Positions 1 through 50,428 are shown, counted from the first letter of the stretch. The stretch is 64,000 nt of DNA from an uncultured archaeon (GCA_964619365.1 CAZUDQ010000001.1:118503-182502); one strand, 5' to 3'. Made by a program: numbers and translations. The notes: generated by a model not told the origin, from the letters alone.

Positions 1-625
1 TACGCCCGTCACAATCATTGTCAAGTCCGTCAGTACAGTTTTCATCTAAACCAGGATTTACTCGGGTCTCATTATCGTCACAGTCCCAGTCACCTGCGCA
101 GTCCTCAGCTACAAGCCATCCTTCTTCTGCCACATAATCGATTTTAACGTTAGTCATATTACAATAGCCATCACGGTCATAATCGCGGAATATATCTATT
201 AATGGCAGACAGTCTATGTAATCATTTAAATCCGTCTTGTTGTCACAGTCATTGTCAAGTCCGTCAGTACATTTTTCCGCCACTGGAAAATTGATTGGTT
301 TGCAAGGGCCGATAAAAAGTGAGGGTGTGCAGCGCCTCTCCCCCTCTGCGCAAATTCCAAAAAGTCCTGTATCACATTCAAAAGTCTCGCCGGGCGAACA
401 TTCTCTAAGGTTTGGGTTTATATGGCAAGTAGTGTTGCAAAGCACCACATTGTCCGAACGATAGGCCTGATCAATCTGGCATTTTGAACAGTCCACATTT
501 TGTGATGAAATATTTTTTGCTTCTTCGCTCCCAGTTTGAACAAAAACAAAGACTGCTGTCACAACCGCTATTGCTACAACGATTATTAATAGGTACTCAA
601 GAGCAGTCTGAGCTTTTTGTTTCAT
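1..625 (-). CDS. Window-truncated paralog of the giant surface adhesin: class III (type IV pilin-like) signal peptide plus Cys-rich module with DGLDNDCD repeats; rest of gene lies beyond position 1
   Basis: Minus-strand ATG at 623-625 gives MKQKAQTALEYLLIIVVAIAVVTAVFVF..CSKCQ..CSPGETFECDTGLFGICAEGE..DGLDNDCDN. This is ~75% identical to the N-terminus of the 675-5567 protein. The frame stays open to the window edge. The ORF track does not list it because it is edge-truncated. Confidence 0.6.
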   Translation of the reverse strand, partial: MKQKAQTALEYLLIIVVAIAVVTAVFVFVQTGSEEAKNISSQNVDCSKCQIDQAYRSDNVVLCNTTCHINPNLRECSPGETFECDTGLFGICAEGERRCTPSLFIGPCKPINFPVAEKCTDGLDNDCDNKTDLNDYIDCLPLIDIFRDYDRDGYCNMTNVKIDYVAEEGWLVAEDCAGDWDCDDNETRVNPGLDENCTDGLDNDCDGR

Positions 626-674
626 TCTAAGATTAATTACTAGGGATAAATTAAAAAGGAGTGAATGTCGTGGA

Positions 675-3600
675 TTAGTTACATACAACTTTTAAATCAA
701 AGTCATCATCGTGATTAACATCTCCGACAAAGTCCGTGAGGAGTGGGGTGTCATCAAAGTTAACACAATCCCACGGGGCGGTGTCTCGGCCGTTTACATC
801 GGCATAACGACGGCATAGCTGGCAGTCATTTTGCATTTGAGGTGAGACACAACTGACTTTTAAGTCAAAGTCGTCGTCATAATTAACATCTCCGACAAAG
901 TCCGTGAGGAGTGGGGTGTCATCAAAGTTAACACAGGACCACGGGGCGGTGTCTCGGCCGTTTACATCGGCATAACGACGGCATAATTGGCAGTCATTTT
1001 GCATTTGAGGTGAGACGCAACTGACTTTTAAGTCAAAGTCGTCGTCACCATTAACATTACCTGCAAAATTCGTAAGGAGGCTTATATTATTAAAGTTAAC
1101 ACAGGACCACGGGGCGGTGTCTCGGCCGTTTACATCGGCATAACGACGGCATAATTGGCAGTCATAGGAAGAATCCATGCACTCCCCGTAAAGGTCTTTT
1201 ATATCATCTTCTGAAAGCTCATAGTTGTATATTTTTAATTCGTCAATTGCGCCATTAAAATATTGAGTATTGTCCCGGAAATCGTTTCCAATGACAAAAT
1301 CGTTAGGTGAGTATGAACAATCTTTACTTGCAGTCACCGTTCCATCCGAATTTCCATCAAGATAATAAGTTCCTTCTTGTCCATTCTTTACAAAGCATAC
1401 ATAATGCCAGTTCCCATCATCTAAGGCTGTGTTTGAGGTTTGTGTAAACCCAAATCCATATGCATTATCATAATCCCAAAAATTCAATCTATGGTTATAG
1501 ACTCTAAACACATACTCTGAGTTTGCGTCCCCTGGTGACCTTCCTTGTTGTACAATTACTCCATTTGATGTGGTCTTTACCCACGAACATATACCCAGCT
1601 TAGACGAGGGGACACTATTGAAAGTGTCTTTGTGTATATAATCACTCCCATCAAATTCTCTTGCATAATCACATACCCCTTCTGTTGCTGTCGTACCCTG
1701 GTTTGTAAATGTTCCGGCAAGATTATCTGGGATAACCCCTTCATTAAGGTCATCTGGATCGTTAAACGGAAGGTATGCGACTAGATTGTCTGAAGCGCCG
1801 TACCTGCACTCCTCATAAAGCTCGTCTATCTCAGATTCTGAAAGCTCATAATCATATACTCTTACTTCATCAATCATGCCTTCAAAAAAGGTCCTGTCTT
1901 CTGTTATAGACTCAAAGAGATTCCAGTATAACTCTGCACCTATCGAATTCAGTTTTCCAGTTATGTCCCCATTGATATTCCCTGTATTCGTGTCTTCTAA
2001 ACTGCCGTCAATAAACAATTTAACAACGCTATTTTTCAAATCAACAATCCCCACAATATGATGCCAAAGACCGTCATTAATGTCAAATGATGAAGAAGCG
2101 CCGAATTCCTGAGCAAGTTCATTATCATCCCCCCTTACAAGTATGCCTATTTTGTTTGGAGGAGTACTTGCCCCACTGCCATCAAATCCTATTCCGATAT
2201 CCAGTACAGTCCTGCCATTATCGCCATCTCTAAAAGAAATCAAAGTGCCGTCTGACTCCCCACTATCGGCTTTCATCCATAATGAGATAGACGCCGCCCC
2301 TTCTTTTGAAAAAGTGAATTCGTTTTCTAGTTCAATGTAATTGTCAACTCCGTTAAACTCGCGCCCATAACTGCATGTCCCGTATGCTGAACTTGACCAG
2401 TGATTTGAAACAGCTCCTGCAAGAGCACTTGGTATGACTCCGGTGCGCACATTATCAGGATTATTAAATGGAAGGTAGATAACTGTATTCTTTGAAGCGC
2501 TGTCTTTACATTCATCATAAAGCTCATCTATTTCAGATGTAGTTAACGCCTTATTCCAAAATCTCATTTCATCAATCACGCCATTAAAAAACTCTGCAAG
2601 ATTGCCACTCGCGTGGTGTGGATCCCTTCCGATAAATAGATTAGATTCAGAATTGATATTTCCAACCGAAGCAAAAGACGCTGTCTCAATAGCATCTAAG
2701 TATGCATTGGCTACCTCATTTTCCCTAACAAAACATAGATGATACCATCTATTTGTGTTTATTTCAACATCAGCGTCCGTGCGAGGTATAATATCATTCA
2801 TATCATTGCCCGCTAGGAATGTTAGAACTCCATTATATATTTGTGCTTCGAAGTTTCCTGCATTCTCATCCCGCTTACTGAGGAGTTGGGCCACCTGGTC
2901 TGTTGTTGATGCCATCTGGTTAAACCAGAAACAATAGCTAAAGTTGCCCGTACCAAAATCGAACTCATCGGTATTTGATATTTCAATATAATCACTACCC
3001 CCATCAAACGCTCGTGCGTAGCTACACGTTCCGTCTGTTGAGATTGTGCCGTAGTCTGTAATATCTCCCTCAAAATCACTTGGAACGGAATCTCCCTTGA
3101 TATCGTCGGGGTCGTTAAATGGTAAATAAAGAACCTGATTCTTTGATAAACTGTCTTTACATTCATAATAAAGTTCGTCTATTTCAGTTTCTGAAAGCAC
3201 ACGATTGTAAACCCGCAGTTCATCAAGTGCCCCAGTGAAATAATATTCACCCATTCGGCGACCAATTTCCAGTGAATTGCCTATTGCACCTGCCCGTGGG
3301 GCTGAAAATGCAAACTCGTTGTCAACATAGATAAAAGCATCTGAGCCGTCATACCCATAAACAACATGATGCCATGTGTTAGCTGAATATGTATCTGGAG
3401 TGTCAATCCAATTGCTTTGTGCGGTTTGCAATCGATATGCGCCGGTGGAAAGGACTTGTAAGTCCATGGCGTAGTTATTCTCAAAAGTTACAAATGAGGC
3501 TACTGCAGGCAACGCTTCGGTTTTCACCCAGACAGAAGCTGTCCAGACAGAAGGCTGGCTAAATGATTTACTTAGGTAACTGCTACCGTCAAACTCTCTT

Positions 3601-5567
3601 GCGTAGCTACACATCCCATCTGTTGATGTAGTACCATGGTCCGTTACTCCCTCGCCCGGGTTTGACGGGTCGTCAAACGGCAAATAAAGGACTAATCCAT
3701 CTTCTAAAGTCAACGGCTGCACTGGCGCGCCACATATACCTATTTTATATATATAAGGGCCTCCTGCAGGGTCATTTATCGATAGTCCCCCACCGATTGC
3801 ATTAACACTACCGCGGCATTGCAAGCGCGAGAATGAGGTCATACTAAGTATCGGGATATCATATTGCATGTTATATGGGTTAACATAAGACTCTTTCACA
3901 CCGTCAATGTATATGGCTCCCCTATACGCAGCTGGGCAACCACCATGTGCGCCTATGCGGTCTTTATCATGATGAGCTATTGTCAATTTGCCATCATTCA
4001 TCAGGATAGAATCATGTCCGTCAACACACGCCTCAAAGACAAAACATTCATCATCACCAACTGGAGTCACTGGCGTACATGAGTCTCCCTGCCAGAGTAG
4101 CCTTGGGTACTCCTGCTCGTTGCACGATGCGTCCCATGGCGGGAAAGACCAGCTGTTGATTGGGTAATACGCGTAGTTCTTAAACACACTTGTCGTTGTC
4201 ATCTTGTGGCATCCCTCGTTCCCCCCATTATAGCAGTCATTTGGGGCATTTGTGTCAATATCCAACCAGTATGAATCCGCAATTGTCGTTCCAGCGTCTT
4301 TATTATAAGCTATACCTCCGGCCTTGAATGTACAAATAGTCGAACTGAACCTATTTTGGAATGTGGGTATTGCAAATGAACCCCGTATGCTCGAACCGCT
4401 CGCATCATATATCAGACCACCTACCCTGCATCCTTCTACAGTCCCTGTCACATAAGAGTTAATTACTGAGGAAGACTCATCTTCATAGATAAGGCCACCT
4501 GAATTCCAGCCAGTAACCTCCCCTGAGAAGTATGAGTTGGATATCGTTGAGCTGTAAGACTTATCGATAAATCCACCTGCATTGCTTGGACCGGTCACTG
4601 TCCCTGAAAAGTATGAGTCAGAAATCTGTGAGCTATGAGCCTCACCGATAATACCTCCAGTCTCTTCACCACTGACTGTTCCAGAATATGAGGATTCATA
4701 TATTGTAGAGCTGCTGTCATAACCAAAGAAGCCACCTATTATCGTTGCACTTGCAGAACTGCTTGTAGACCCAGAAATCAAAACAGACGTTATGCTCGCG
4801 CCATTTGCGTTTCCGGCAAGGGCGCCGACGTATTCTTCTCCCTTAACTGATACGCTTTCTAAGAGAATATCTTTTACCTCGCCCTCCAAGAAAGCAAAGA
4901 GTCCGGCATTGTTGCCTGCTATATCCACATTCAAGTTAGTTATAGAATTTCCATCCCCATCAAGAACTCCCTGGAACGGGTCAGCTTCTGTGCATAACGG
5001 CTGCCATGAAATTCCTGTAAGGTCAATGTCCTGTATTATTAAATATGAGAAATTGGAAACTTCACAAATTGCTTGCAAATCTGTTGGCGTTTCTACTAAA
5101 CAGGGTTCTGCGTACGTTCCATGACCATCCATTCCTGCCGGGCAGGCTGTTGCACAATCATCGTCATCATAGTCTGTTAAATTGTCGCAATCGTTGTCAA
5201 GGCCGTCATCACATATCTCTACTACCGGAAAATTGATTGGTTCGCATGGGCCAACAAAAAGAGAGGTTGTGCATTTCTCTTCGCCTTGTGCACAAATTCC
5301 AAAAAGTCCAGTGTCACACTCAAAAGTTTCGCCAGGCGAACATTCCCTGCGGCTTGAATCTATGTGACAAGTCGTGTTGCATAGTCCCAAGTTTTCTGTC
5401 CGGTAAGCCTTATCAACTTGGCATTTTGAACAGTCTATATTCTCAGATGAGATGTTTTTTGCTTCTTCGCTTGAACTTTGGATGAATACAAAGACTGCTG
5501 TTATGACCCCGAGGACAACGACAATTATGAGCAGGTACTCCAGTGATGTTTGAGCTTTATCTTTCAT
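675..5567 (-). CDS. Giant (1630 aa) secreted/surface adhesin-like protein: class III pilin-type signal peptide, Cys-rich module, GLUG-like repeats, beta-helix-like region, 4x LamG-like (concanavalin-type lectin) domains, 3x dockerin-like Ca-binding repeats
   Basis: The N-terminus MKDKA|QTSLEYLLIIVVVLGVITAVFVF has the charged-K/A-Q-hydrophobic pattern of archaeal prepilin (class III) signals. There is a DGLDNDCDNLTDYDDDDC metal-binding-type Cys motif. Repeated G[GL]xIG...NSY[FV][ST]G segments occur at aa ~245-400. Four ~215-aa repeats each start L(V)YLPF(N/D)DP and end EIDELYxEC. The C-terminus is three 56-aa repeats, CQLCRRYADVNGRDTAPW..DVNYDDDFDLK. Confidence 0.8.
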   Translation of the reverse strand: MKDKAQTSLEYLLIIVVVLGVITAVFVFIQSSSEEAKNISSENIDCSKCQVDKAYRTENLGLCNTTCHIDSSRRECSPGETFECDTGLFGICAQGEEKCTTSLFVGPCEPINFPVVEICDDGLDNDCDNLTDYDDDDCATACPAGMDGHGTYAEPCLVETPTDLQAICEVSNFSYLIIQDIDLTGISWQPLCTEADPFQGVLDGDGNSITNLNVDIAGNNAGLFAFLEGEVKDILLESVSVKGEEYVGALAGNANGASITSVLISGSTSSSASATIIGGFFGYDSSSTIYESSYSGTVSGEETGGIIGEAHSSQISDSYFSGTVTGPSNAGGFIDKSYSSTISNSYFSGEVTGWNSGGLIYEDESSSVINSYVTGTVEGCRVGGLIYDASGSSIRGSFAIPTFQNRFSSTICTFKAGGIAYNKDAGTTIADSYWLDIDTNAPNDCYNGGNEGCHKMTTTSVFKNYAYYPINSWSFPPWDASCNEQEYPRLLWQGDSCTPVTPVGDDECFVFEACVDGHDSILMNDGKLTIAHHDKDRIGAHGGCPAAYRGAIYIDGVKESYVNPYNMQYDIPILSMTSFSRLQCRGSVNAIGGGLSINDPAGGPYIYKIGICGAPVQPLTLEDGLVLYLPFDDPSNPGEGVTDHGTTSTDGMCSYAREFDGSSYLSKSFSQPSVWTASVWVKTEALPAVASFVTFENNYAMDLQVLSTGAYRLQTAQSNWIDTPDTYSANTWHHVVYGYDGSDAFIYVDNEFAFSAPRAGAIGNSLEIGRRMGEYYFTGALDELRVYNRVLSETEIDELYYECKDSLSKNQVLYLPFNDPDDIKGDSVPSDFEGDITDYGTISTDGTCSYARAFDGGSDYIEISNTDEFDFGTGNFSYCFWFNQMASTTDQVAQLLSKRDENAGNFEAQIYNGVLTFLAGNDMNDIIPRTDADVEINTNRWYHLCFVRENEVANAYLDAIETASFASVGNINSESNLFIGRDPHHASGNLAEFFNGVIDEMRFWNKALTTSEIDELYDECKDSASKNTVIYLPFNNPDNVRTGVIPSALAGAVSNHWSSSAYGTCSYGREFNGVDNYIELENEFTFSKEGAASISLWMKADSGESDGTLISFRDGDNGRTVLDIGIGFDGSGASTPPNKIGILVRGDDNELAQEFGASSSFDINDGLWHHIVGIVDLKNSVVKLFIDGSLEDTNTGNINGDITGKLNSIGAELYWNLFESITEDRTFFEGMIDEVRVYDYELSESEIDELYEECRYGASDNLVAYLPFNDPDDLNEGVIPDNLAGTFTNQGTTATEGVCDYAREFDGSDYIHKDTFNSVPSSKLGICSWVKTTSNGVIVQQGRSPGDANSEYVFRVYNHRLNFWDYDNAYGFGFTQTSNTALDDGNWHYVCFVKNGQEGTYYLDGNSDGTVTASKDCSYSPNDFVIGNDFRDNTQYFNGAIDELKIYNYELSEDDIKDLYGECMDSSYDCQLCRRYADVNGRDTAPWSCVNFNNISLLTNFAGNVNGDDDFDLKVSCVSPQMQNDCQLCRRYADVNGRDTAPWSCVNFDDTPLLTDFVGDVNYDDDFDLKVSCVSPQMQNDCQLCRRYADVNGRDTAPWDCVNFDDTPLLTDFVGDVNHDDDFDLKVVCN
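678..1160. repeat. Three near-identical 168-bp tandem repeats (encode the 56-aa dockerin-like repeats of the giant adhesin C-terminus)
   Basis: Direct reading shows units such as acgacggcataattggcagtcattttgcatttgaggtgagac...gacttttaagtcaaagtcgtcgtca...acggggcggtgtctcggccgtttacatcggcata recurring at a 168-bp period with a few substitutions. Confidence 0.85.
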
Positions 5568-5586
5568 TTATTTTTCGTTATGGCAT

Positions 5587-5904
5587 TTAGGGCATAGGAA
5601 CTTCCCAATTACCGCTATCTCCGTCGCAATTTAGGATTATTTCTTCTCCTGAATGGATTATTGTCTTTGTGTCGCCACTCTCACAAATTCCAGCATCGTT
5701 TGGGTCAAGGTCGCATTCGTATAACTCACCTGGCGTACATTTTTCCGGGCTTGTCTGGCAGGATATGCACGATTTTGAGCTTATTGCCTGCTGAGATATT
5801 TGCTTTGTTGAGCCCTGCTGGAAAGTGAGAATTGCAATAACGACAATTAGCGCGATTACAGAAACTAGCATATATTCTAGTGCAGTCTGACCTTTTTGGT
5901 TCAT
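5587..5904 (-). CDS. Small pilin-like protein (105 aa) with class III signal peptide and the same Cys-rich module as the giant adhesins
   Basis: MNQKG|QTALEYMLVSVIALIVVIAILTF is a prepilin-type signal. CISCQ...CTPGELYECD...GICESGD parallels CSKCQ...CSPGETFECDTGLFGICAQGE in the 1630-aa protein. Confidence 0.65.
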   Translation of the reverse strand: MNQKGQTALEYMLVSVIALIVVIAILTFQQGSTKQISQQAISSKSCISCQTSPEKCTPGELYECDLDPNDAGICESGDTKTIIHSGEEIILNCDGDSGNWEVPMP

Positions 5905-5942
5905 AATTTAATGATTAATTAATACCCTAATGTTAAAAAGAT
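5905..5942. promoter_or_regulatory. AT-rich divergent promoter region between the pilin-like gene (-) and thpR (+), with TATA-like ttaattaata
   Basis: 38-bp spacer, aatttaatgattaattaataccctaatgttaaaaag. Archaeal TATA boxes are A/T octamers ~25 nt upstream of the transcription start. Confidence 0.3.
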
Positions 5943-19086: not shown

Positions 19087-20481
19087 TTGGATAAATATAC
19101 ACCCAAACCAAGTTTATCCATTAATATGAGTCCTTGCTCCAAAATAGCGGTTTTTGGAATCGGTGGCGCAGGCTGTAAGATTGCAGGCAACTTAGCTGAG
19201 ATGGCACCGGAAGGTCTTGAGATAGGTGTTATAGACAAAGATGAGCGCGACTTTGCAGGTCTTCCAGAAAGTGTAAAAAGGATAGATATCGGACAGGCTG
19301 TGGCTTGCAAGAATGGAAAGCCTTCTGAAGTAAAAGAAGCTGTTTCGCGCGATATCAAAAAAATAGAAGATGCACTTGAGGGGGCTGATATTGCAATAAT
19401 CATTGCGAGCCTTGGCGGGAAAACTGGTGCTTGTCTTGCCGAATTTGTTTCAGAAGCATGTGAAAACATGGGTGTGACAACAATATTTGTCCCAATATAC
19501 CCCGCATCAAATATGGGTATGGGAACAGACTTTGCAGACTCGGTAATAAAACGCATGAGGAAAAAGGCAGACGCCGTTTTAATCATTGATAATAATTTGA
19601 AACTACGAAGTTCGGGAAAGCCCATGCTTTATGTTTTCAGAGAAGTAAACAGGCTTGTTGTCGAACTGGTTCTATTAATCTCCCATTCGGTTATGGGTCT
19701 TGGTGATACAAGTCTTGGCGAAGATGGTGTTCGCAGATTCTTTTGTGGCGAAAAGCAGTTCATTGTGACTTCTGGAAGAGAAGTCAGCCTTAAACGTGCT
19801 ATTGAAGGGGCAATAAACGAGGCTGGAATGTATGCTGAAAAACCTATGATAAAAAGGGCGCTTGCCCTAGTATCAAGCCCTCGCGAACTTGACATTCTTG
19901 AGATGCGGGAGCTTAACACTTCAATGAGAAGAGAACTTAATATTGACGATATTGAATGGTCATGTAGCTATGTTGGGGATGGCTATAACTCTTTTATTCT
20001 TGTTGCAGAAGTCGGAGAACTGCCGCTTGTAGACGGTGTTGAACTCCCGGCTGAGATTGAGCCCGAAGGGCCTGTTTCAATAAAGGAGGAAACCCCATAT
20101 CCCAAAGGAGAGTTTGAGGTACTTGAAAAGACTGCTAATGTAATAGATAAGAGCAACAATGACTTATTTGGCGGCATCATGCCTAAGGTTGAAACCGGAA
20201 AAGATATGCCTGGTCTTAATGTTAATCCATTGCCAGAGTGGAAGGGCGGTTCTGCAAGGGGCAGATTCAAGCGACAGGCTTTGATTGGTATAAACCGAGA
20301 AAAACCTAGGGACGCGCCAAAAGTAAAAGAAGAACCTGTTGTAGTTCCAGCCAAGGGCGAAGCGCGCCCTCCTGATGATGTATGGACTGCAGCATGTGAA
20401 CTTTCGGGTCATCCCCCGACACCAAAGCCAAAAGAGAAGGAAAAGCCAAAGAAGGACAACTTTGGTATAGAATATATCTAA
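19087..20481 (+). CDS. Divergent FtsZ/tubulin-superfamily GTPase with a long Pro/Lys-rich C-terminal extension
   Basis: IAVFGIGGAGCKIAGNL (T1 loop), SLGGKTGAC in place of canonical GGGTGTG (T4), and LIIDNNL matching the FtsZ NxDxxE region. The C-terminal ~130 aa are low complexity and end FGIEYI. Confidence 0.5.
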   Translation: MDKYTPKPSLSINMSPCSKIAVFGIGGAGCKIAGNLAEMAPEGLEIGVIDKDERDFAGLPESVKRIDIGQAVACKNGKPSEVKEAVSRDIKKIEDALEGADIAIIIASLGGKTGACLAEFVSEACENMGVTTIFVPIYPASNMGMGTDFADSVIKRMRKKADAVLIIDNNLKLRSSGKPMLYVFREVNRLVVELVLLISHSVMGLGDTSLGEDGVRRFFCGEKQFIVTSGREVSLKRAIEGAINEAGMYAEKPMIKRALALVSSPRELDILEMRELNTSMRRELNIDDIEWSCSYVGDGYNSFILVAEVGELPLVDGVELPAEIEPEGPVSIKEETPYPKGEFEVLEKTANVIDKSNNDLFGGIMPKVETGKDMPGLNVNPLPEWKGGSARGRFKRQALIGINREKPRDAPKVKEEPVVVPAKGEARPPDDVWTAACELSGHPPTPKPKEKEKPKKDNFGIEYI

Positions 20482-20500
20482 GATTGTCAGTGATTATAAA

Positions 20501-21724
20501 ATGAATGAACAAAAAGTTTTGATGATTTCTTGTGTTTTTGTATTGCTTTTTAGTGCCATTTGCCTCGGGGATGTCAGTATTACAGATGAAGGTGATGTCG
20601 GTGTCAACGGGAAAAACGTCGCAAGAATAGAAGTGAAAAACGAGTGCGATGGCGCAGCAAGCGTCTCTGCAAGCGTTGAGTGTTCAAGCCCGATAAGCTG
20701 CAGTGTTTCACCGACTAGCGCGACAATAGCTGAGAATGCTACAAAAAAGTTCACAGTAACGCTGACAGGAAGACTTTGGACGCAAACTTCCACAGTCACT
20801 TTTGAGATATCAGGTTCTTGTGAGGACGGTTCTGAGTTTACTGAATCAACATCATTTGACGCAACGCCTCCTGATTATGACCTGGAAATCATCAGTCCAA
20901 AAAAGAAGATATCCATTGTGGAAAAAGAGGGGATAAGCACAAGTTTTGATGCTGTTGTAAGAAACACTGGTGAGGGTGACTTAGAGGGTGTGGAAATAAC
21001 CATAAAAAGTGTTTATAACACAACAAACTGTGACTGGGATACCTCTCCAAATTCACTCAAGCCCGGAGAATCAGCAAGGTATAAGGTTACATGTCAAAAC
21101 CTCACATTTAGCGGTCGTGACATAAGTATAGAAGCCAGCGAATCCCATGATGTCGCATTTGACAGTGAGCTTTTGCGAATAAATGTTGTTGGAGCCATAA
21201 AGAACCCGGGTCTTGAAATTCTTGCCCCGCTTGAAAACGAGCTATTCGAATTTACAGAACTGCCGGGCAAAGTCACTCTTGAGATAAATAATACAGGAAA
21301 TGTTGATTTCTCGGACCTAAGTTTCCTTGTAGAAGGCATGGAATCGTCATCAGACTCATTTAATCTTGCTGTAAACGAAGCACTAAACGTGACTGTTTTC
21401 CTTATGGCCCCCACAGGAAACGGGTATGCACGAATAGCCATTCTTACTCCAGGTTCAAATTCAGCACTTGCTGAAGTCACTGTAAGGAGTTTTGTCGCAG
21501 AGTCCATTGAGATAACAGAACCTGTCTTAAATGAGACTCTAAATGAAACTGTCAATGAAACGATTGTTGAGAATAACACGACAAAAAGCGATGAAGAACT
21601 TCCTTTCTGGCTTGCAAGCAACATAATAAAGGGCATTCCTGATCTTGCTCTCTTTGTGGCAATTATCCTTGTTGTAGCAATAATTGTTTATATCGGATAT
21701 AGGGAAGGTCCGGTAGCCAACTAA
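20501..21724 (+). CDS. Secreted, C-terminally membrane-anchored surface protein with a dense cluster of N-glycosylation sequons
   Basis: Signal peptide MNEQKVLMISCVFVLLFSAICLG, C-terminal TM LALFVAIILVVAIIVYIGY, and NETLNETVNETIVENNTT just before the anchor. Confidence 0.55.
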   Translation: MNEQKVLMISCVFVLLFSAICLGDVSITDEGDVGVNGKNVARIEVKNECDGAASVSASVECSSPISCSVSPTSATIAENATKKFTVTLTGRLWTQTSTVTFEISGSCEDGSEFTESTSFDATPPDYDLEIISPKKKISIVEKEGISTSFDAVVRNTGEGDLEGVEITIKSVYNTTNCDWDTSPNSLKPGESARYKVTCQNLTFSGRDISIEASESHDVAFDSELLRINVVGAIKNPGLEILAPLENELFEFTELPGKVTLEINNTGNVDFSDLSFLVEGMESSSDSFNLAVNEALNVTVFLMAPTGNGYARIAILTPGSNSALAEVTVRSFVAESIEITEPVLNETLNETVNETIVENNTTKSDEELPFWLASNIIKGIPDLALFVAIILVVAIIVYIGYREGPVAN

Positions 21725-33694: not shown

Positions 33695-34765
33695 ATGATA
33701 CCTATTGCAAAACCACTTATTGGCCAGGAGGAAAAATCAGCCGTAAATGATGTCCTAAATTCCGGCATGATTGCAGAAGGGCCAAGGGTAAAAGAATTTG
33801 AAGAGAATTTCGCGGAGTTCTGTGGGACAAAACACGCAGTTGCGGTTAATTCGGGGACTGCTGCACTTCATGTAGCGCTCATGGCAGCGGGAATAAAGCC
33901 AGGTGATGAAGTCATAACAACACCGTTTAGCTTCATTGCAACAGGGAATTCTATTCTTATGGCGGGCGCAAAACCCGTCTTTTGCGATATTGATTCAAAA
34001 ACCTTCAACATCAGCCCAGAAAGCATTAAAGAGGCCATAAGCGACAAAACCAGGGCAATAATGCCTGTGCATCTTTTTGGGCAGTGTGCTGACATGAGTG
34101 CAATTAATGAAATCGCGCAAGACTCGGGTGTGCGAGTCATCGAAGACGCCTGTCAAGCACACGCTGCGGAGTGGAAAGGAGTAAAAGCGGGCGCTCTTGG
34201 AGATGTTGCCGGCTTCTCATTTTACCCGACAAAGAATATGACGACTTCAGAAGGTGGTATGGTTACGACAAACGATGATAAAATAGCCAAGATGTCAAGA
34301 ATATACCGCAATCACGGAATGGCACGCAGGTATTACCACGATTACATGGGCTTTAACTACCGGATGACAGATATCTGCGCTGCAATCGGTCTTGCTCAAC
34401 TAAGAAAGCTTGACGGCTTTACAAAAAAGCGCCGCGATAATGCAAATTATCTTGATAATAATCTAAACGGTGTTGTAACTCCATATGTCTCGCCTGATGC
34501 AAAGCATGTTTACCACCAGTACACAATAATGGTGGAGAATCGCGATACTGTTATCGAAAAACTAAAGGAAGCCGAAATCGGTTGCGGGGTGTATTATCCT
34601 GTTCCGATAAACGAGCAGACTTATTACAAAGAACTTGGATATTCTACACAAAGCACGCCAAACTCAAATGATGTCGCAAAAAAGGTTCTTTCACTTCCAG
34701 TTCATCCGTCTGTTACAGAAGACAATCTTAAGCTAATTGCAAATACGCTAAATAATATAGCATAA
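33695..34765 (+). CDS. wbpE: DegT/DnrJ/EryC1 PLP-dependent sugar aminotransferase (WbpE-like, UDP-2-acetamido-3-amino-uronate forming)
   Basis: DegT-family motifs (FCGTKHAVAVNSGTAALH, PLP-Lys context SFYPTKNMTTSEGG). Sits in an operon with WbpB/WbpA/WbpD homologs. Confidence 0.8.
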   Translation: MIPIAKPLIGQEEKSAVNDVLNSGMIAEGPRVKEFEENFAEFCGTKHAVAVNSGTAALHVALMAAGIKPGDEVITTPFSFIATGNSILMAGAKPVFCDIDSKTFNISPESIKEAISDKTRAIMPVHLFGQCADMSAINEIAQDSGVRVIEDACQAHAAEWKGVKAGALGDVAGFSFYPTKNMTTSEGGMVTTNDDKIAKMSRIYRNHGMARRYYHDYMGFNYRMTDICAAIGLAQLRKLDGFTKKRRDNANYLDNNLNGVVTPYVSPDAKHVYHQYTIMVENRDTVIEKLKEAEIGCGVYYPVPINEQTYYKELGYSTQSTPNSNDVAKKVLSLPVHPSVTEDNLKLIANTLNNIA

Positions 34766-34766
34766 A

Positions 34767-35390
34767 ATGAGGATATTATTACTTTCGCCACACACTGATG
34801 ATGTAGAACTTGGAGCTGGGGCAAGTGTCTCGCGTTTTGTCCGTGAGGGTCATGAGATAAAATGGATTGCATTCTCAAGTTGCGAGTCTTCACTACCTTC
34901 AGGTTTTGCTAAAGGTCAATTGAGGGGTGAGTTCGAAGAATCTGCAAAGGTTTTGGGCATTAAAGATATTACTTGTATGGACTTTTCTAACAGGACGTTT
35001 TTGGGTGGGCGCCAAAAGATACTCGATAAATTAATCGAAGTAAAAAAGGACTTTTCTCCGGAACTTATACTCTGCCCTTCGCGTTCTGATTTACATCAGG
35101 ATCACCAAGTTGTCTTTGAGGAAGCTTTTCGCGCATTTAAAAAAAGTTCGAGCATACTCGGGTATGAGGAGCCCTGGAATAATCTTGAATTCAAACCTTC
35201 TTTTTTCCAAAAGGTGACTGAAGAGGACATGAACAAAAAGTTGCTTGCATTATCAAAATACGAGACGCAAGGGACTCTCTCTCGCAATTACTTCGACGAA
35301 GATTTCATAAAGGGTCTTGGGCGCGTTCGTGGCGTACAGTGTAATTCACTATTTGCAGAGGCCTTTGAAGTATATAGATGGATTCAATAA
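34767..35390 (+). CDS. PIG-L/LmbE family N-acetylglucosaminyl deacetylase
   Basis: LSPHTDDVELGAG (HxDD-type zinc motif) and downstream HQDH. Confidence 0.7.
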   Translation: MRILLLSPHTDDVELGAGASVSRFVREGHEIKWIAFSSCESSLPSGFAKGQLRGEFEESAKVLGIKDITCMDFSNRTFLGGRQKILDKLIEVKKDFSPELILCPSRSDLHQDHQVVFEEAFRAFKKSSSILGYEEPWNNLEFKPSFFQKVTEEDMNKKLLALSKYETQGTLSRNYFDEDFIKGLGRVRGVQCNSLFAEAFEVYRWIQ

Positions 35391-36442
35391 CAGTTCTTGT
35401 AACAGGGGCGGGAGCGCCGGGCATTGCCGGGACGATATACTCACTTAAGAACAACCCTGACAACCGCAGTATCCGCATAGTAGGTGTTGATATGAAAGAA
35501 GACGTTGTTGGAAAATACCTCTGCGACGCTTTTTTTAAGATTCCTGCACCTTCTGAACGAGGTTATCTGGACACAGTTATACGAATCTGTGACAATGAAG
35601 GTGTTGATGTCATTTTACCTCAGACTACAAACGAACTTTATCCTCTTTCACAAGGAAAAGAGGCTCTGGAAAAAGCTGGAATAAAACTTGCTCTTTCAAA
35701 CGCGGATGCAATCGAAAAAAGTAACGATAAATACGAGCTTTTTAAGCTCTGTGAAAAGCTTGGCGTGCCTGTGCCAAAATACGCTCTTGTAAGTGATTTT
35801 GAGTCTCTCATGTCTTTTGCAGGCAAGCTAGGCTTTCCAAATAAGCCTTTTGTCATAAAACCGCCTGTTGCAAGCGGTATGCGGGGCCTTAGGATTGTGG
35901 ACGATGAAAAATCGCTTAAAGAAATGTTTTATGATGAAAAGCCAAATGGCGCGTATTGCAGAAGCGAACAACTGCGAACAACACTTGGCGAAAAGTTCCC
36001 GCCGCTTCTTGTTATGGAATACCTTCCTGGTGATGAGTACTCTGTTGACTGCTTTAGGGGAGAAAGCAAGAATGTTGCTATTCCACGAAAACGGGATCTC
36101 ATAAGAACGGGAATCACATTTAACGGAACGCTTGAAGAAAGAAAAGATATCATTGAGTGGTCCACTAAACTCGCTGAAGAAATTGGTCTTGAGTACTGCT
36201 TTGGGTTTCAGTATAAGCTTGACGAAAAGGGAGTGCCAAAGATGCTTGAAAGCAATCCACGAGTCCAGGGGACTATGGTTGCCGCAACAATTGGTGGGGC
36301 AAATGTCATATACGCTTCAATACTTCTTGGGCTGGGTGAAAGAGCACCGGAGTTTAACATAAAGTGGGGTGCGAGGATAATGAGATATTGGGGAGGTATT
36401 GGCAGCCTTGATGACAAACGAATAGCCGACATTCTAGTATGA
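35378..36442 (+). CDS. ATP-grasp domain ligase (carboxylate-amine ligase type)
   Basis: FVIKPPVASGMRGLRIV, EYLPGDEYSVDCF and the general ATP-grasp B/C-domain layout. Confidence 0.7.
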   Translation: MDSITVLVTGAGAPGIAGTIYSLKNNPDNRSIRIVGVDMKEDVVGKYLCDAFFKIPAPSERGYLDTVIRICDNEGVDVILPQTTNELYPLSQGKEALEKAGIKLALSNADAIEKSNDKYELFKLCEKLGVPVPKYALVSDFESLMSFAGKLGFPNKPFVIKPPVASGMRGLRIVDDEKSLKEMFYDEKPNGAYCRSEQLRTTLGEKFPPLLVMEYLPGDEYSVDCFRGESKNVAIPRKRDLIRTGITFNGTLEERKDIIEWSTKLAEEIGLEYCFGFQYKLDEKGVPKMLESNPRVQGTMVAATIGGANVIYASILLGLGERAPEFNIKWGARIMRYWGGIGSLDDKRIADILV

Positions 36443-37050
36443 AATCTTGGGAAAAATATCAGGGCCTTCTAATGACGGGAAACTGGCACGTCCACAGCAA
36501 TTATACTGATGGGCAGGATTCTGTGCTTCGTATGTGCGATGCTGCAGTTGGCGCCAGGCTCCCACTTCTTGCGTTTACAGAACACGTAAGAAAAGAACTC
36601 TCTTATGATTTTGACGCTTTTTTGTCTGATCTAAAATCAGTAAGAGCCGCGTTCCCGGAAATTGTTATTTTAAGTGGGTGTGAAGCAAAAATTCTTCCTG
36701 GGGGGGACATAGATGCTCCACCGGAACTGATAAAAACTGTTGATTATCCCATAGTTTCTTTCCATTCTTTTGAGGGTGGTCGGGACGAGTATCTTGAAGC
36801 CCTAAAAAAGGCAGTAAACGTTCCTGAGGTATGTGCATGGGGGCATCCTGGGGCTCTAGCAGAAAAAAGAGCTTTTGAGTTTTCTGATGAAGAATTAAAT
36901 GAAGTTTTTGGTATTATGGCAAAAAACAAGGTTCTTTTAGAATCAAACGAAAAATATGGGGTGCCAAAAAAGGACTGGGAAGACCTTGCTGTAAATGCGG
37001 GAGTCAGCTTGGTTCGGGGCCGCGATTCCCATTCTACAGGAGACATTTAG
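36439..37050 (+). CDS. PHP-domain phosphoesterase
   Basis: [13 protein letters not shown]...FTEHV metal-binding His/Asp pattern of PHP (polymerase/histidinol-phosphatase) domains. Confidence 0.5.
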
Positions 37051-37055
37051 AAAAG

Positions 37056-37553
37056 ATGGTAAAAATCCATGAGAGTGCAGAAGTCTCAGAAAAGGCGAAA
37101 ATCGGTGAAGGAACAAGTATATGGCATCAAGCTCAAGTTCGTGAGAATGCAGTAATCGGAAAGGACTGTAATATTGGAAAGGGCGTCTATATAGACTCTG
37201 GTGTAAAAATCGGGGACGCCTGCAAAATCCAGAATTATGTTTCAGTCTATCACGGTGTTGAGATAGAAGATGACGTATTTGTCGGACCGTCGGCAACATT
37301 CACAAACGACTTTAGGCCTCGCGCATTCATCTGGAATGAAGAAAAGGTTGGGAAGACACTTGTCAAAAAAGGCGCATCAATCGGAGCGAATTCCACAATA
37401 GTCTGTGGTGTTGAGATTGGAGAATATGCTATGGTCGGTGCGGGAAGCGTTGTTACAAAAGACGTTCCACCTTTTGGGCTTGTCTATGGAAACCCTGCAA
37501 AGCTGTGCGGGAAGGTAAATAAAGAAGGTGAAGTAATTGAAAGATATGATTAA
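37056..37553 (+). CDS. wbpD: Hexapeptide-repeat (LbH) sugar N-acetyltransferase (WbpD-like)
   Basis: Repeated [LIV]G-x4 hexapeptides ([25 protein letters not shown]...). Adjacent to WbpB/WbpA homologs. Confidence 0.75.
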
Positions 37554-38484
37554 AGCGGCAGTTATCGGTGTCGGTAACATGGGTAAGCATCACGCCCGAG
37601 TTTATTCAGAATTAAAGGACTGCGCGCTTGTAGCAGTTGTTGATAAGAACGAAAAAGCGGCAAAGGAAGTCGCAACACAATTTGACTGTGATTATTATAC
37701 TGATGTATCAGACATTATTGGAAAGGTAGACTGCGCGAGTGTTGTAGTACCAACCTTCCTGCACAGGGATGTCGCAATCACTCTTCTTGAAAACGGGATT
37801 GATGTGCTTCTTGAAAAGCCTATTGCAATGTCAACAGGGGAAGCTGATGAAATAATACGTTGCGCCGAGGAAAACGGGAGAATACTACAAATTGGACATA
37901 TAGAGCGCTTCAACCCGGCAATAATTGCAGCAAGAGACGAAATTAACGATAACCCGATAGCTCTTGAAGCAAATCGTATTGGACCTTCTGGAGGTCGCAT
38001 ATCTGATTGTGGCGTTATCTTAGACCTTATGATCCATGACGTGGATTTGATTTTAAGTCTTGTCGATTCGGCGGTCAAAGATGTTTATGCGAGCTCAAAA
38101 ACAATGTCGGGAAAGCATGAAGATTACGCAAAGGCTCTCCTCACTTTTGAAAACGGGACTATTGCAAGTGTTTGTGCCAGCAGGATAAGCCAAAAGAGGG
38201 AAAGAACGCTTAACATCACACTTCCGGATAAGTATTTATGTGTTGACTGCATGTCAAAATCACTTTCCATACACAAACAAGGCAAATACGAAAAGGAAGA
38301 TGGCGTCACCAGTTTCAGTGACATTGTAGAACGTCCACTTATCAGGCAAAGTGAACCCTTAAAGCTTGAACTTGAAAGTTTCTTGTCATGTGTCAGAGAA
38401 AGGACCGTGCCTGTTGTGACGGGTGCCCAGGGAAAACTAGCACTTGAGATTGTAGAAGGGATTTTAGAGGCGGCAAATGGGTGA
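37537..38484 (+). CDS. wbpB: Gfo/Idh/MocA family oxidoreductase (WbpB-like UDP-GlcNAcA 3-dehydrogenase)
   Basis: N-terminal Rossmann [15 protein letters not shown] motif (LLEKPIAMS), ~315 aa. Confidence 0.8.
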
Positions 38485-41004: not shown

Positions 41005-41010
41005 CTGATT

Positions 41011-42159: not shown

Positions 42160-42361
42160 ACTAACCCATAAAAAACTAAAATGATACACAAGAAAAAGGA
42201 ATTAAAAGAATGGTGTGAGGAATCCGCAATAGAATTTGGTAATATCAATGTGGAATTAGGAAAAGTTATTGTTGAATATGATAGATTGCTTAACCAAGGT
42301 AATAAAATTTGAATGGTCCTTATAAAACGTGTTTTAGTAAAAAACAATCCAAATAATAGCG

Positions 42362-43126: not shown

Positions 43127-43127
43127 A

Positions 43128-43961: not shown

Positions 43962-44090
43962 GAAAACAGACACTTTCGTCAAAAAAGGTAAAAGAAAAAT
44001 TGGGTTGGGAACCAAAATTTAGTTTCGCAGACGGTATGAAAAGGACTGTTAGTTGGTATACAGACTTCTTCTTCAAATAAACTATTAACA

Positions 44091-47950: not shown

Positions 47951-47973
47951 TATATCCTAGCCTCTAATCAAGA

Positions 47974-50369: not shown

Positions 50370-50428
50370 TTCCCTTTATTTTTAGTGCCTAGACAAATAA
50401 ACCCGCCAGTCTGTGCTTATTAAAAAGG

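What the first reader, a model, noticed from the sequence alone, without database searches (positions are those of the whole stretch)
1..5904. Tandem trio of pilin-signal proteins sharing a Cys-rich N-terminal module, two of them giant modular adhesins
Three consecutive minus-strand genes (1-625 partial, 675-5567, 5587-5904) all start with an archaeal class III (type IV prepilin-like) signal, M-K-x-K-(A/G)|Q-T-(A/S)-L-E-Y-(L/M)-L plus a hydrophobic helix. All three carry the same module just after the helix: CxxCQ...C(S/T)PGE(L/T)(F/Y)ECD...GIC..GE. The 105-aa gene looks like a pilin subunit. The two large genes attach the same pilin head to >1500-aa passengers. This suggests a pilus-displayed or pilus-pathway-secreted adhesin set, which could serve cell-cell or symbiont-host attachment. 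The N-terminal module shared by a minor pilin and the giant proteins is not a domain combination I can name.
Basis: partly seen in the sequence, partly recalled or inferred. Interest (0 to 1): 0.75.

Follow-up and report, generated by a model that had tools for sequence, protein, structure and literature searches.

The report
Pilin-headed adhesin gene trio, archaeal
Three neighbouring genes of an uncultured archaeon all begin with the cleavable signal and greasy helix that pilus subunits use; one is a tiny cysteine-rich subunit and two carry that head in front of large sticky-looking domains, an archaeal version of the "modular pilins" known from bacteria, but no experiment shows that they sit on a pilus.

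Summary
The three minus-strand genes exist as described, with one correction. The gene cut by the window edge is 678 aa when complete, so only one gene is giant (1630 aa).

All three start with a 5-residue leader ending in Gly/Ala, then Gln+1, Glu+5, Tyr+6 and about 22 hydrophobic residues. This matches the signature reported for substrates of the Methanococcus prepilin peptidase EppA, and the G-x4-E-Y Flp/Tad motif as I recall it.

A profile of the three N-termini found 65 proteins with the same invariant site among 1.84 billion cluster representatives. Forty-five are 61-130 aa "mini-pilins", about half with six Cys. Twenty are larger, and the 1630-aa protein is the largest.

The shared Cys region has two parts. 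One is a family-specific CxxC...C...C stretch modelled as short helices. The other is an EGF-like unit plus MopE motif that is a common repeat of Sec-secreted bacterial surface proteins.

The passengers are a GLUG region, four Laminin_G_3 lectin-like domains and three unassigned 56-aa repeats. GLUG regions are also found on bacterial pilins, archaeal pilins and flagellins.

Best reading: an Epd/Tad-like pilin plus two modular pilin adhesins. No pilus machinery lies in the 64 kb, and filament display is untested. It is a new variant of a known kind.

The parts
5587..5904 (-). 105-aa mini-pilin-like gene. Leader MNQKG (5890-5904), hydrophobic helix residues 6-30 (5815-5889), 6-Cys region residues 46-93 (5626-5769).
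   Evidence: ORF. Identical to P0003. Family alignment A3. AF2 model: helix 5-51 plus small beta unit 79-101, mean pLDDT 70.7.
675..5567 (-). 1630-aa gene with a pilin-type head and a large passenger. It starts 19 nt after the stop of the small gene.
   Evidence: ORF. Identical to P0002. Pfam hits. Single N-terminal hydrophobic segment and no C-terminal anchor.
5478..5567 (-). Class III-type signal of the big protein: leader MKDKA (5553-5567), then Q-T-S-L-E-Y and the hydrophobic helix (residues 6-30).
   Evidence: AF2 helix 3-51, with pLDDT block means 87-97 over residues 11-60. PF04021 hit is sub-threshold.
5367..5432 (-). Cys sub-module A (residues 46-67, CxxC...C...C). It is modelled as the end of the long helix plus two short helices. 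Also present in P0004 and P0005.
   Evidence: Disulfide stapling is inferred, not shown.
5244..5342 (-). EGF-like Cys unit (residues 76-108, C-S-P-G-E-T-F-E-C-D-T-G-L-F-G-I-C-A-Q-G-E-E-K-C...C).
   Evidence: Profile positions 66-109 match tandem repeats in the Sec-signal surface proteins P0017, P0024, P0052, P0061 and P0062. The AF2 model is low-confidence here.
5142..5222 (-). MopE-like acidic Cys motif (residues 116-142, CDDGLDNDCDNLTDYDDDDC).
   Evidence: The motif is visible in the sequence. PF11617 passes its cut-off in the paralogue, but PF11617 was not among the hits at E <= 0.1 for this protein. There is only a weak NCBIfam acid_disulf_rpt hit.
4068..5120 (-). GLUG-motif region (residues about 150-500).
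   Evidence: Weak Pfam Glug and Peptidase_M26_N hits. 88 homologues down to E = 1e-33, nearly all annotated PF07581.
3711..4067 (-). Unassigned Cys-containing domain (residues 501-619).
   Evidence: No family hit.
1173..3710 (-). Four Laminin_G_3 / concanavalin A-like lectin-fold domains (residues about 620-1465). Each starts with ...YLPF[DN][DN]P. The first three end with EIDELYxEC and the fourth with DIKDLYGEC.
   Evidence: PF13385 E = 8e-90, 4 stretches. Repeat landmarks. Weak PDB LamG hits.
678..1163 (-). Three tandem 56-aa Cys/Asp-rich repeats at the C-terminus (DCQLCRRYADVNGRD...DDDFDLKVSC).
   Evidence: TRF period 168, 2.8 copies, 90% matches. Sequence. No family match.
2..625 (-). First 208 codons of a 678-aa gene. 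Leader MKQKA (611-625), helix (536-610), Cys sub-module A (425-490), EGF-like unit (302-400), MopE motifs (209-280 and 2-85). The rest lies left of the window.
   Evidence: Translation. Full length from P0001. PF11617 39.9 bits against cut-off 27, and 81.5 bits in the full protein.
5905..5942 (.). 38-bp AT-rich spacer between the small gene and the divergent LigT gene. It contains TATTAATTAATC. A similar TAATTAATC lies before the 678-aa gene (626-674).
   Evidence: Read from the sequence. A promoter role is inference only.

Best explanation
The trio encodes substrates of a prepilin (class III signal) peptidase of the EppA/Epd type, in an uncultured archaeon whose closest labelled relatives are Altiarchaeota MAGs.

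Each precursor would be inserted in the membrane by its N-terminal helix. It would be cut after Gly/Ala(-1), leaving a mature N-terminus Gln-Thr-Ala/Ser-Leu-Glu-Tyr.

The 105-aa protein is a filament subunit of the small Epd/Tad-like kind: one long helix plus a disulfide-rich mini-domain instead of a globular pilin domain.

The 1630-aa and 678-aa proteins are modular pilins. They carry the same head, followed by an EGF-like/MopE stalk and different passengers. The 1630-aa passenger is a GLUG region, four Laminin_G_3 lectin-like domains and three Cys/Asp repeats. The 678-aa passenger is MopE repeats, a Gly-rich linker and a 380-aa domain with no family match. The head would plug them into the filament, most likely at the tip or sparsely along it, so that the passengers bind glycans or surfaces.

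Shown: the sequence anatomy, family membership and domain content.
Inferred: cleavage, polymerisation, position in the filament and ligand.
For: (1) Motif. M-x-x-K-[AG]|Q-T-[AS]-L-E-Y plus about 22 hydrophobic residues in all three proteins. It matches the EppA substrate sites KG|Q and RA|Q, with conserved +1 Gln and +5 Glu (PMC4371748).

(2) Constraint. A 3-sequence profile found 70 proteins at E < 1e-3 among 1.84e9 representatives. Of these, 65 carry the motif with invariant -1 G/A, +1 Q, +5 E and +6 Y. P0005, P0006, P0014 and P0032 pass Pfam PF04021's gathering score. JGI names P0004 and P0006 'UPF0333 family'.

(3) Family shape. 45 of the 65 are 61-130 aa, and 23 of those have 6 Cys.

(4) Gene context of the family. 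In L085, four mini-pilins stand in tandem. They are followed by a membrane protein and seven ORFs with KGQ/KG class III-like N-termini, in an archaeal contig that also carries MCM and TBP.

(5) Structure models. A long N-terminal helix, 5-51 in the small protein and 3-51 in the big one, with pLDDT block means 87-97 over residues 11-60 of the big one.

(6) Solved relatives. The best sequence matches in the PDB are Tad/Flp pilins 8u1k and 8u2b, but weakly (E 0.11-0.23). The small protein also has a weak Pfam Flp_Fap hit.

(7) Head reuse. The two large proteins share only the first ~139 aa and then diverge. P0063, from an archaeal contig with a 16S-23S operon, has the same signal + EGF-like + MopE arrangement in front of a right-handed beta-helix.

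(8) Passenger precedent. GLUG regions homologous to residues 150-640 are fused to a bacterial N_methyl pilin (P0076), to archaeal Pilin_N proteins (P0078, P0091, P0147) and to bacterial flagellins. Modular pilins carrying PF13385 lectin modules are described in bacteria (PMC8179133).

(9) No other anchor. There is no second hydrophobic segment in any of the three proteins.
Against: - No Peptidase_A24, secretion ATPase or platform protein gene is in the 64-kb window. The rest of the genome could not be read.
- The window proteins themselves score below the Pfam PF04021 and Flp_Fap cut-offs.
- The structure models are of medium or low confidence outside the helix, and gave no fold match.
- The trio is absent from the syntenic position in eight related MAG loci, so there is no conserved operon context.
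- Class III signals in archaea also serve non-filament surface proteins, such as flagellins and bindosome subunits (PMC4371748).
- A 1600-aa passenger on a helix-only pilin has no experimental precedent that I found.
Confidence: 0.6

Rival explanations
1. The signals are of class III type, but the proteins are not part of a long pilus. After cleavage the helix holds them at the membrane or in a short pseudopilus-like stub, like the sugar-binding proteins of the Sulfolobus bindosome. The large proteins would then be envelope-anchored adhesins.
For: Archaeal prepilin peptidases also process non-pilus proteins such as bindosome subunits (PMC4371748). No assembly genes lie nearby. The N-terminal helix is the only possible anchor. 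The passengers are very large.
Against: Glu+5 and Tyr+6 are invariant across 65 relatives, and the family is dominated by 61-130-aa proteins that can do little except polymerise. In L085 the family sits at the head of a cluster of seven minor-pilin-like genes.
Confidence: 0.25
2. The N-termini are ordinary Sec signal peptides or uncleaved signal anchors. The resemblance to prepilin signals is superficial, and the three genes are simply paralogous surface proteins.
For: Pfam Class_IIIsignal hits are below threshold. The EGF-like/MopE unit is otherwise found in proteins with classical Sec signals.
Against: The leader has only 5 residues. A charged Glu sits at the start of a ~22-residue hydrophobic stretch, and I saw no small-x-small cleavage region after it (read from the sequences; hydrophobic segment). 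The strict conservation of G/A-Q-x-x-x-E-Y in 65 relatives is unexplained by a generic anchor. Relatives pass the PF04021 cut-off.
Confidence: 0.08
3. The proteins are exported and released through a type II secretion-like use of the filament machinery. The head is removed, and the passengers act as free lectins or matrix proteins in a biofilm.
For: The passengers are built from extracellular matrix-type modules: LamG, EGF-like, MopE.
Against: No second cleavage site or separate secretion signal was identified. I know of no archaeal type II secretion-like cargo export (my own knowledge, not checked here). The head is conserved as one unit with the stalk.
Confidence: 0.05

Closest known systems
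Epd pilins of Methanococcus maripaludis (EppA substrates; archaeal type IV filament 'system 1')
   Same: Short leader ending in G/A, +1 Gln, +5 Glu, and a small subunit without a globular domain (PMC4371748; bioRxiv 10.64898/2026.04.22.720090). Sub-threshold to threshold PF04021 / UPF0333 similarity.
   Different: The proteins here have a disulfide-rich mini-domain (6 Cys), and two paralogues have 570- to 1520-aa passengers. No EppA or Epd assembly genes are seen in the window. The lineage is Altiarchaeota-like, not Methanococcales.
Modular type IV pilins of bacteria (Streptococcus sanguinis PilB with a vWA module, PilC with a concanavalin A-like lectin module)
   Same: A pilin-type N-terminus with functional modules grafted behind it. 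PF13385 / ConA-like lectin modules are among the described passengers, and a tip location is proposed (PMC8179133).
   Different: The bacterial examples have the N-methylation motif IPR012902 and a small globular pilin module. Here the signal is the archaeal Gln+1 type and the head is helix-only plus Cys units. The passenger is much larger: 1630 aa against the 860-residue protein that the survey singles out as its most extreme multi-domain case.
Flp/Tad pilins (for example Caulobacter PilA 8u1k, Flp pilin 8u2b)
   Same: The G-x-x-x-x-E-Y motif at the cleavage site (motif definition from my own knowledge). Helix-dominated tiny subunits. These are the best, though weak, solved-structure sequence matches. 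The literature derives Tad from Epd-like archaeal pili.
   Different: Pfam Flp_Fap scores 14 bits against a cut-off of 32.2. Flp pilins have no Cys domain and no large passengers.
Archaeal Pilin_N (PF07790) + GLUG proteins (P0078, P0091, P0147) and the bacterial N_methyl + GLUG pilin (P0076)
   Same: The same GLUG passenger type behind a type IV pilin N-terminus.
   Different: The signal class differs: GVSPVIGV-type in the archaeal Pilin_N proteins and the bacterial FTLIEL type in P0076. They have no Cys/EGF/MopE stalk and no LamG array. They are database entries only, with no experiments.
TafC of haloarchaeal Tat-fimbriae
   Same: A fimbrial subunit that matches the LamG part of the big protein (NCBIfam NF052521, E = 2.4e-34). 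Tafi are described in PMC11821415.
   Different: The match covers only the C-terminal part of the TafC profile (positions 196-368 of 373 in the best stretch), 119 bits against a cut-off of 410. Tafi use the Tat pathway, and no twin-arginine signal is present here.
Hami (grappling hooks) of Candidatus Altiarchaeum hamiconexum
   Same: A surface appendage of the phylum that supplies the closest labelled relatives, with an adhesion role (PMC4460559).
   Different: The hamus protein is reported with a Sec signal peptide and S-layer-like beta-sandwich regions, not a class III signal.

Membership tests
Class III signal peptide proteins / UPF0333 (Pfam PF04021), EppA-type | Short charged leader ending in Gly/Ala at -1 | tested here: met
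   Leaders MKDKA, MKQKA and MNQKG. -1 is G or A in 65 of 65 relatives.
Class III signal peptide proteins / UPF0333 (Pfam PF04021), EppA-type | Gln at +1 and Glu at +5 (EppA substrates; PMC4371748) | tested here: met
   Q-T-[AS]-L-E in all three proteins, invariant in 65 relatives.
Class III signal peptide proteins / UPF0333 (Pfam PF04021), EppA-type | About 20 hydrophobic residues directly after the cleavage site, forming a long N-terminal helix | tested here: met
   Kyte-Doolittle scan. AF2 helices 5-51 and 3-51.
Class III signal peptide proteins / UPF0333 (Pfam PF04021), EppA-type | Score at or above Pfam's gathering threshold (23.7 bits) | tested here: not met
   15.6-16.4 bits for the window proteins. 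Relatives P0005, P0006, P0014 and P0032 score 24.2-26.6 bits.
Class III signal peptide proteins / UPF0333 (Pfam PF04021), EppA-type | A prepilin peptidase (A24/EppA), assembly ATPase and platform protein in the same genome | tested here: inconclusive
   None in the 64-kb window. The remainder of the 242.5-kb source contig and the genome was not retrievable.
Class III signal peptide proteins / UPF0333 (Pfam PF04021), EppA-type | Actual cleavage at G/A|Q and incorporation into a filament | not testable with these tools
   Needs mass spectrometry and microscopy.
Modular type IV pilins (sensu Raynaud et al. 2021) | N-terminal pilin-type signal and helix, followed by a domain not specific to pilus biology | tested here: met
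   GLUG, 4 x Laminin_G_3 and MopE motifs behind the head.
Modular type IV pilins (sensu Raynaud et al. 2021) | Bacterial N-methylation motif IPR012902 / PF07963 and a globular pilin module | tested here: not met
   No N_methyl hit. The head is a helix plus Cys units. It is therefore an archaeal analogue, not a member of the surveyed set.
Flp/Tad pilins (Pfam PF04964) | G-x-x-x-x-E-Y processing motif (definition from my own knowledge) | tested here: met
   G/A-Q-T-A-L-E-Y.
Flp/Tad pilins (Pfam PF04964) | Pfam gathering score (32.2 bits) | tested here: not met
   14.0 bits, small protein only. PDB Flp matches at E = 0.11-0.23.
TafC fimbrial protein (NCBIfam NF052521) | Full-length match at or above 410 bits | tested here: not met
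   119 bits. The best stretch covers profile positions 196-368 of 373 and lies in the LamG region. No RR motif is visible in the N-terminus.
MopE-type 'putative metal-binding motif' (Pfam PF11617) | Score at or above 27 bits | tested here: met
   678-aa gene: 39.9 bits in the window fragment and 81.5 bits full length. PF11617 was not among the hits at E <= 0.1 for the 1630-aa protein, where only the motif is visible.
Hamus (Altiarchaeum grappling-hook protein) | Sequence similarity to the 97-kDa hamus subunit; Sec signal | not tested
The published description (Sec signal, S-layer-like) differs.

The most novel reading that the evidence does not exclude
The mini-proteins with the KGQTALEY head and six Cys are the building blocks of an undescribed disulfide-stapled subclass of Epd/Tad-like archaeal pili. 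In this Altiarchaeota-like lineage the filament would directly polymerise giant lectin-type adhesins (up to 1630 aa) through a helix-only head. That would be a filament-borne adhesion system functionally comparable to the hami of Altiarchaeum, and the largest pilin known.
Probability: 0.2. Interest if true: 0.6.

Novelty: new variant of a known kind. Interest (0 to 1): 0.4.

Why it matters
Modular pilins explain how simple filaments gain new binding functions, but they have been surveyed only through the bacterial pilin signature.

Here the same strategy appears on the archaeal Gln+1 (EppA/Epd, Tad-like) type of head, which has no globular pilin domain. One head is reused on two different passengers next to a mini-pilin gene.

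If confirmed, three things would follow:
- It would extend modular pilins to archaeal Epd-like pili.
- It would define a cysteine-rich mini-pilin family found in metagenomes; the two member contexts read here are archaeal.
- It would give candidate adhesins for an uncultured subsurface or sediment archaeal lineage whose attachment biology, outside the hami of one genus, is unknown to me.

It is not a new principle. The value lies in a testable set of genes and a family definition.

Tried and rejected
- **Word-indexed protein search.** The N-terminal 133 aa and the C-terminal 380 aa of P0001 gave no hits. These searches did not even return the query's own protein, which one search confirms for P0001 and implies for the 1630-aa protein. 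These negatives therefore carry little weight.
- **Genome-collection scan with the head alignment.** Nothing found.
- **Metagenome scan.** Two loci matched only the signal. Their gene neighbourhoods look bacterial to me, with Flp-like 71-aa proteins.
- **Fold searches of both AF2 models against the PDB.** No match at E <= 0.001. The models are only confident in the helix.
- **PDB sequence search of the large proteins.** Only weak LamG and MopE matches.
- **Extending the window leftward** to read the rest of the 678-aa gene and what follows. The 1630-aa and 678-aa proteins are not in the position index. Only short contigs that break inside the big gene were returned.
- **Synteny in relatives.** LigT-FtsY-M50-HD-TFE-Trm56 is conserved in eight related loci, but the trio is absent. 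There is no comparative operon evidence.
- **Pfam on the eight ORFs after the L085 pilins.** Nothing above threshold.
- **Neighbours of other modular members.** P0063 and P0057 have no adjacent pilin genes.
- **Rejected: TafC membership.** The match is partial, in the LamG region only.
- **Rejected: an IgA-protease-like enzyme.** Only the N-terminal GLUG-type region matches, weakly, and no M26 catalytic-domain family was among the Pfam hits.
- **Rejected: a mobile-element or viral origin.** GC content of the trio is 42-44%, like its surroundings, and the context is housekeeping genes.


Full report
**What is in the sequence**

Three consecutive minus-strand ORFs occupy the left end of the window:
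- 5587-5904 encodes 105 aa.
- 675-5567 encodes 1630 aa and starts 19 nt after the small gene's stop.
- 2-625 holds the first 208 codons of a gene that runs off the window. Its start lies 49 nt after the big gene's stop.

All three begin M-[KN]-x-K-[AG]-Q-T-[AS]-L-E-Y-[LM]-L followed by about 22 hydrophobic residues. A regular-expression scan of all six frames finds this motif, followed by a hydrophobic stretch, nowhere else in the 64 kb. Each protein has a single hydrophobic segment, at the N-terminus, and no C-terminal anchor.

The two larger proteins are 76% identical over their first 112 residues. Their similarity stops at about residue 139, after which they are unrelated.

The small protein shares the helix and the pattern C-[TS]-P-G-E-x-[FY]-E-C-D...G-I-C-x-x-G with them. 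Taking only the post-helix parts, the local alignment scores 65 against 31.5 +/- 6.1 for 2000 shuffles that keep the Cys content, and 1 of 2000 shuffles reaches it. So the shared module is real.

One correction is needed. The cut gene corresponds to a 678-aa protein (P0001) whose first 208 residues are identical to the window fragment. Only one of the three is giant.

The small gene and the first 850 and 536 codons of the big gene are identical in two assemblies from other samples. Those contigs break inside the big gene.

**Whose genome**

The window encodes TFE-alpha, aTrm56, class I LysRS, Cdc48, a RadA/RadB-type (Rad51-family) recombinase, a CetZ-like tubulin, ribosomal proteins L10e and S24e, and an STT3/AglB oligosaccharyltransferase. 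It is therefore archaeal.

The FtsY gene lies two genes from the trio. Its best relatives in a one-genome-per-species collection are unnamed archaeal MAGs at 60-75% identity and two MAGs labelled Candidatus Altiarchaeota at 64% and 52%. Methanosarcinales follow at 53% or less. I therefore call the lineage Altiarchaeota-like, tentatively.

The block LigT-FtsY-M50-HD-TFE-Trm56 is syntenic in eight of these loci. None has the trio or any class III motif. In L008, NAC, GlmS and NadA lie upstream of LigT instead. The trio is thus lineage-specific at this position. Its GC content does not stand out.

**The N-terminus is a class III, EppA-type signal by every sequence criterion I could test**

Pfam's Class_IIIsignal model hits all three proteins, but below threshold: 15.6-16.4 bits against 23.7.

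A profile of the three N-termini (112 positions) was scored by HMMER against 1.84 billion cluster representatives. It returned 70 proteins at E < 1e-3. The window's own three proteins are among them.

Sixty-five of the 70 carry the motif within their N-terminal region. Gly/Ala at -1, Gln at +1, Glu at +5 and Tyr at +6 are invariant. The helix varies only among hydrophobic residues. A plain membrane anchor would not need that pattern of constraint.

P0005, P0006, P0014 and P0032 pass the Pfam cut-off. JGI names P0004 and P0006 'UPF0333 family'.

The review PMC4371748 states the following:
- Substrates of the second Methanococcus prepilin peptidase, EppA, have processing sites such as KG|QV, KG|QI and RA|QI.
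- They have a highly conserved +1 Gln and a +5 Glu.
- EppA needs the +1 Gln.

The same residues also satisfy the G-x4-E-Y Flp motif of bacterial Tad pilins, as I know it. Consistent with that, the best sequence matches of the family profile among solved structures are the Tad/Flp pilins 8u1k and 8u2b, although only at E = 0.11-0.23. A 2026 preprint notes that the main Epd pilin lacks a globular domain like Tad pilins, and that this 'system 1' occurs in methanogens, DPANN and deep-branching euryarchaea.

**The family**

- Of the 65 relatives, 45 are 61-130 aa long.
- Twenty-three of those 45 have exactly six Cys, in a C...C...C...C...C...C mini-domain about 20 residues after the helix.
- The other 20 are larger, from 158 to 1630 aa. 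The window's big protein is the largest.

In an archaeal contig that also carries MCM and TBP (L085), four such mini-proteins stand in tandem. They are followed by one membrane protein and seven ORFs whose N-termini are again KGQ...E or KG... plus a hydrophobic stretch. That is what a major-pilin plus minor-pilin cluster looks like. These ORFs have no Pfam match, so this reading rests on their N-termini alone.

P0063 comes from a contig carrying an archaeal 16S-23S operon. It has the same order of signal, helix, EGF-like Cys unit and MopE motif, followed by a right-handed beta-helix (BLASTP E = 3e-10 over the head). Reuse of this head on different passengers is therefore not confined to this genome.

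**The shared Cys region has two parts**

Part A (residues 46-67 of the large proteins, CxxC...C...C) also occurs in P0004 and P0005. AlphaFold2 models it as the end of the long helix plus two short helices. I infer a disulfide-stapled hairpin, but I could not inspect coordinates.

Part B (residues 76-142) is C-x-P-G-[DE]-T-x-x-C-x-T-G-L-x-G-[IV]-C-x-x-G-x-x-x-C...C followed by C-D-D-G-x-D-N-D-C-D. Exactly this unit is tandemly repeated in proteins with ordinary Sec signals: P0017, P0024, P0052, P0061 and P0062. Its second half is Pfam PF11617, the 'putative metal-binding motif' first seen in MopE. That model passes its cut-off in the 678-aa gene.

This meets one of its own refutation conditions for the module, but not for the signal.

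**Structure models**

The small protein was modelled with a 31-sequence alignment. The result is a helix 5-51 and a small three-stranded unit 79-101, mean pLDDT 70.7.

Residues 1-160 of the big protein give a helix 3-51, with pLDDT block means of 87-97 over residues 11-60. Short helices follow to residue 67. The EGF-like part is low-confidence.

A helix of about 50 residues at the N-terminus is the hallmark of type IV pilins. Neither model found a fold match in the PDB, so the models add only the helix.

**The passengers**

The 1630-aa protein contains, in order:
- a GLUG-motif region, residues about 150-500, with weak Pfam Glug and Peptidase_M26_N hits and 88 homologues down to E = 1e-33, nearly all annotated PF07581;
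- an unassigned Cys-containing stretch, residues 501-619;
- four Laminin_G_3 domains of the concanavalin A-like lectin fold (PF13385, E = 8e-90);
- three 56-aa Cys/Asp-rich repeats with no family match, encoded by a 168-nt tandem repeat at 90% identity.

The GLUG homologues are informative. The same region is fused to a bacterial type IV pilin (P0076, N_methyl), to archaeal Pilin_N proteins (P0078, P0091, P0147) and to bacterial flagellins. It is also fused to T9SS, SLH and dockerin anchors. It is thus a module that evolution repeatedly hangs on filaments and cell surfaces.

Raynaud et al. (PMC8179133) defined 'modular pilins' in bacteria: more than 1,200 proteins in 264 architectures. PF13385 lectin modules are among the frequent passengers, and S. 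sanguinis PilC carries a ConA-like module. They argued that such subunits are probably tip-exposed.

The NCBIfam hit to TafC, a subunit of haloarchaeal Tat-fimbriae, covers only the LamG part, at 119 bits against a cut-off of 410. It is an analogy, not membership.

The 678-aa protein continues with further MopE motifs, a Gly-rich linker and a 380-aa domain with no match anywhere I could search.

**How it most likely works (confidence 0.6)**

1. The precursors are inserted in the membrane by the helix.
2. An EppA-like peptidase cuts after G/A(-1).
3. The 105-aa protein polymerises through its helix into an Epd/Tad-like filament, with its disulfide-rich mini-domain on the surface.
4. The two large paralogues use the same head to enter the filament at low frequency or at the tip. 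They present lectin-like and GLUG modules on an EGF/MopE stalk for binding to glycans or surfaces.

The sequence anatomy, family membership and domain content are shown. Cleavage, polymerisation, position in the filament and ligand are inferred.

The main rival (0.25) is that the class III signal serves only as a processed membrane or pseudopilus anchor, as in bindosome proteins. An ordinary Sec signal or signal anchor (0.08) fits poorly, given the 5-residue leader, Glu at the start of the hydrophobic stretch and the invariant G/A-Q-x3-E-Y. Release as soluble cargo (0.05) has nothing specific in its favour.

**Weak points**

- No prepilin peptidase, ATPase or platform gene lies in the window.
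- I could not read the rest of the 242.5-kb source contig.
- There is no conserved operon context in relatives.

**Novelty and score**

Large proteins with class III signals, read as 'minor pilin or adhesin', have been noted in archaeal type IV pilus loci (PMC4858521). Modular pilins are established in bacteria.

The new elements are these:
- the combination of a Gln+1, helix-only Epd/Tad-like head with very large passengers;
- reuse of one head on two passengers beside a mini-pilin gene;
- the six-Cys mini-pilin family, for which my literature searches found no description.

I rate it a new variant of a known kind, interest 0.4.

Noticed in passing
window 51400-55098 (-): A 1232-aa protein combines an STT3/AglB oligosaccharyltransferase N-terminal region (PF02516, residues 149-523) with a C-terminal FKBP-type peptidyl-prolyl isomerase domain (PF00254, residues 984-1069). 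This fusion looked unusual to me.
   Followed up: no
window 33695-51385: A glycan-biosynthesis island: DegT aminotransferase, PIG-L deacetylase, ATP-grasp, hexapeptide transferase, UDP-sugar dehydrogenase, GT1/GT2/GT4 transferases, epimerases, an Asn-synthase-like protein and a flippase. The stretch 40-48 kb has GC 33-37%, against 43-45% in most of the rest, which suggests acquired or fast-evolving surface-glycan genes.
   Followed up: partly
window 688-1165: A 168-nt tandem repeat (2.8 copies, 90% identical) encodes the three C-terminal 56-aa Cys/Asp-rich repeats of the big protein, which have no family match. Two independent assemblies stop well upstream of it, inside the gene after codons 850 and 536.
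   Followed up: partly
L085 9438-16031: In another archaeal contig, four tandem KGQTALEY six-Cys mini-pilin genes are followed by a 224-aa membrane protein and seven ORFs with KGQ/KG class III-like N-termini. It looks like a complete pilin operon, with no Pfam annotation.
   Followed up: partly
L093 2884-10081: The modular family member P0063 (696 aa; signal + EGF-like + MopE + NosD/beta-helix) lies directly downstream of a complete archaeal 16S-23S rRNA operon and a tRNA.
   Followed up: partly
L081 1355-1570; L082 5565-5729: Proteins starting MNQKGQT[AS]VEYILL were found in metagenome contigs whose neighbouring genes look bacterial to me. One is a 71-aa Flp-like protein; the other runs off the contig end. 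They share the window's leader almost residue for residue, which illustrates the Epd/Tad continuity.
   Followed up: no
window 19087-21724: A CetZ-like tubulin/FtsZ-family gene lies next to Cdc48. It is followed by a 407-aa protein with weak, sub-threshold Ig-like domain hits (DUF7507, HYDIN/VesB-like). The protein also looks as if it has an N-terminal signal and a C-terminal hydrophobic anchor, and it carries many N-x-S/T sequons.
   Followed up: no
window 5905-5942 and 626-674: The small gene and the divergent LigT gene are only 38 bp apart. The spacer contains TATTAATTAATC, and a similar TAATTAATC precedes the 678-aa gene. These may be promoter elements duplicated along with the head.
   Followed up: no
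tool behaviour (against 35, 40): The word-indexed protein search did not return the query's own protein for two queries, although P0001 is confirmed in the collection and the 1630-aa protein appears in the derived representative library. Negative results from that tool for these low-redundancy sequences should not be read as absence.
   Followed up: yes
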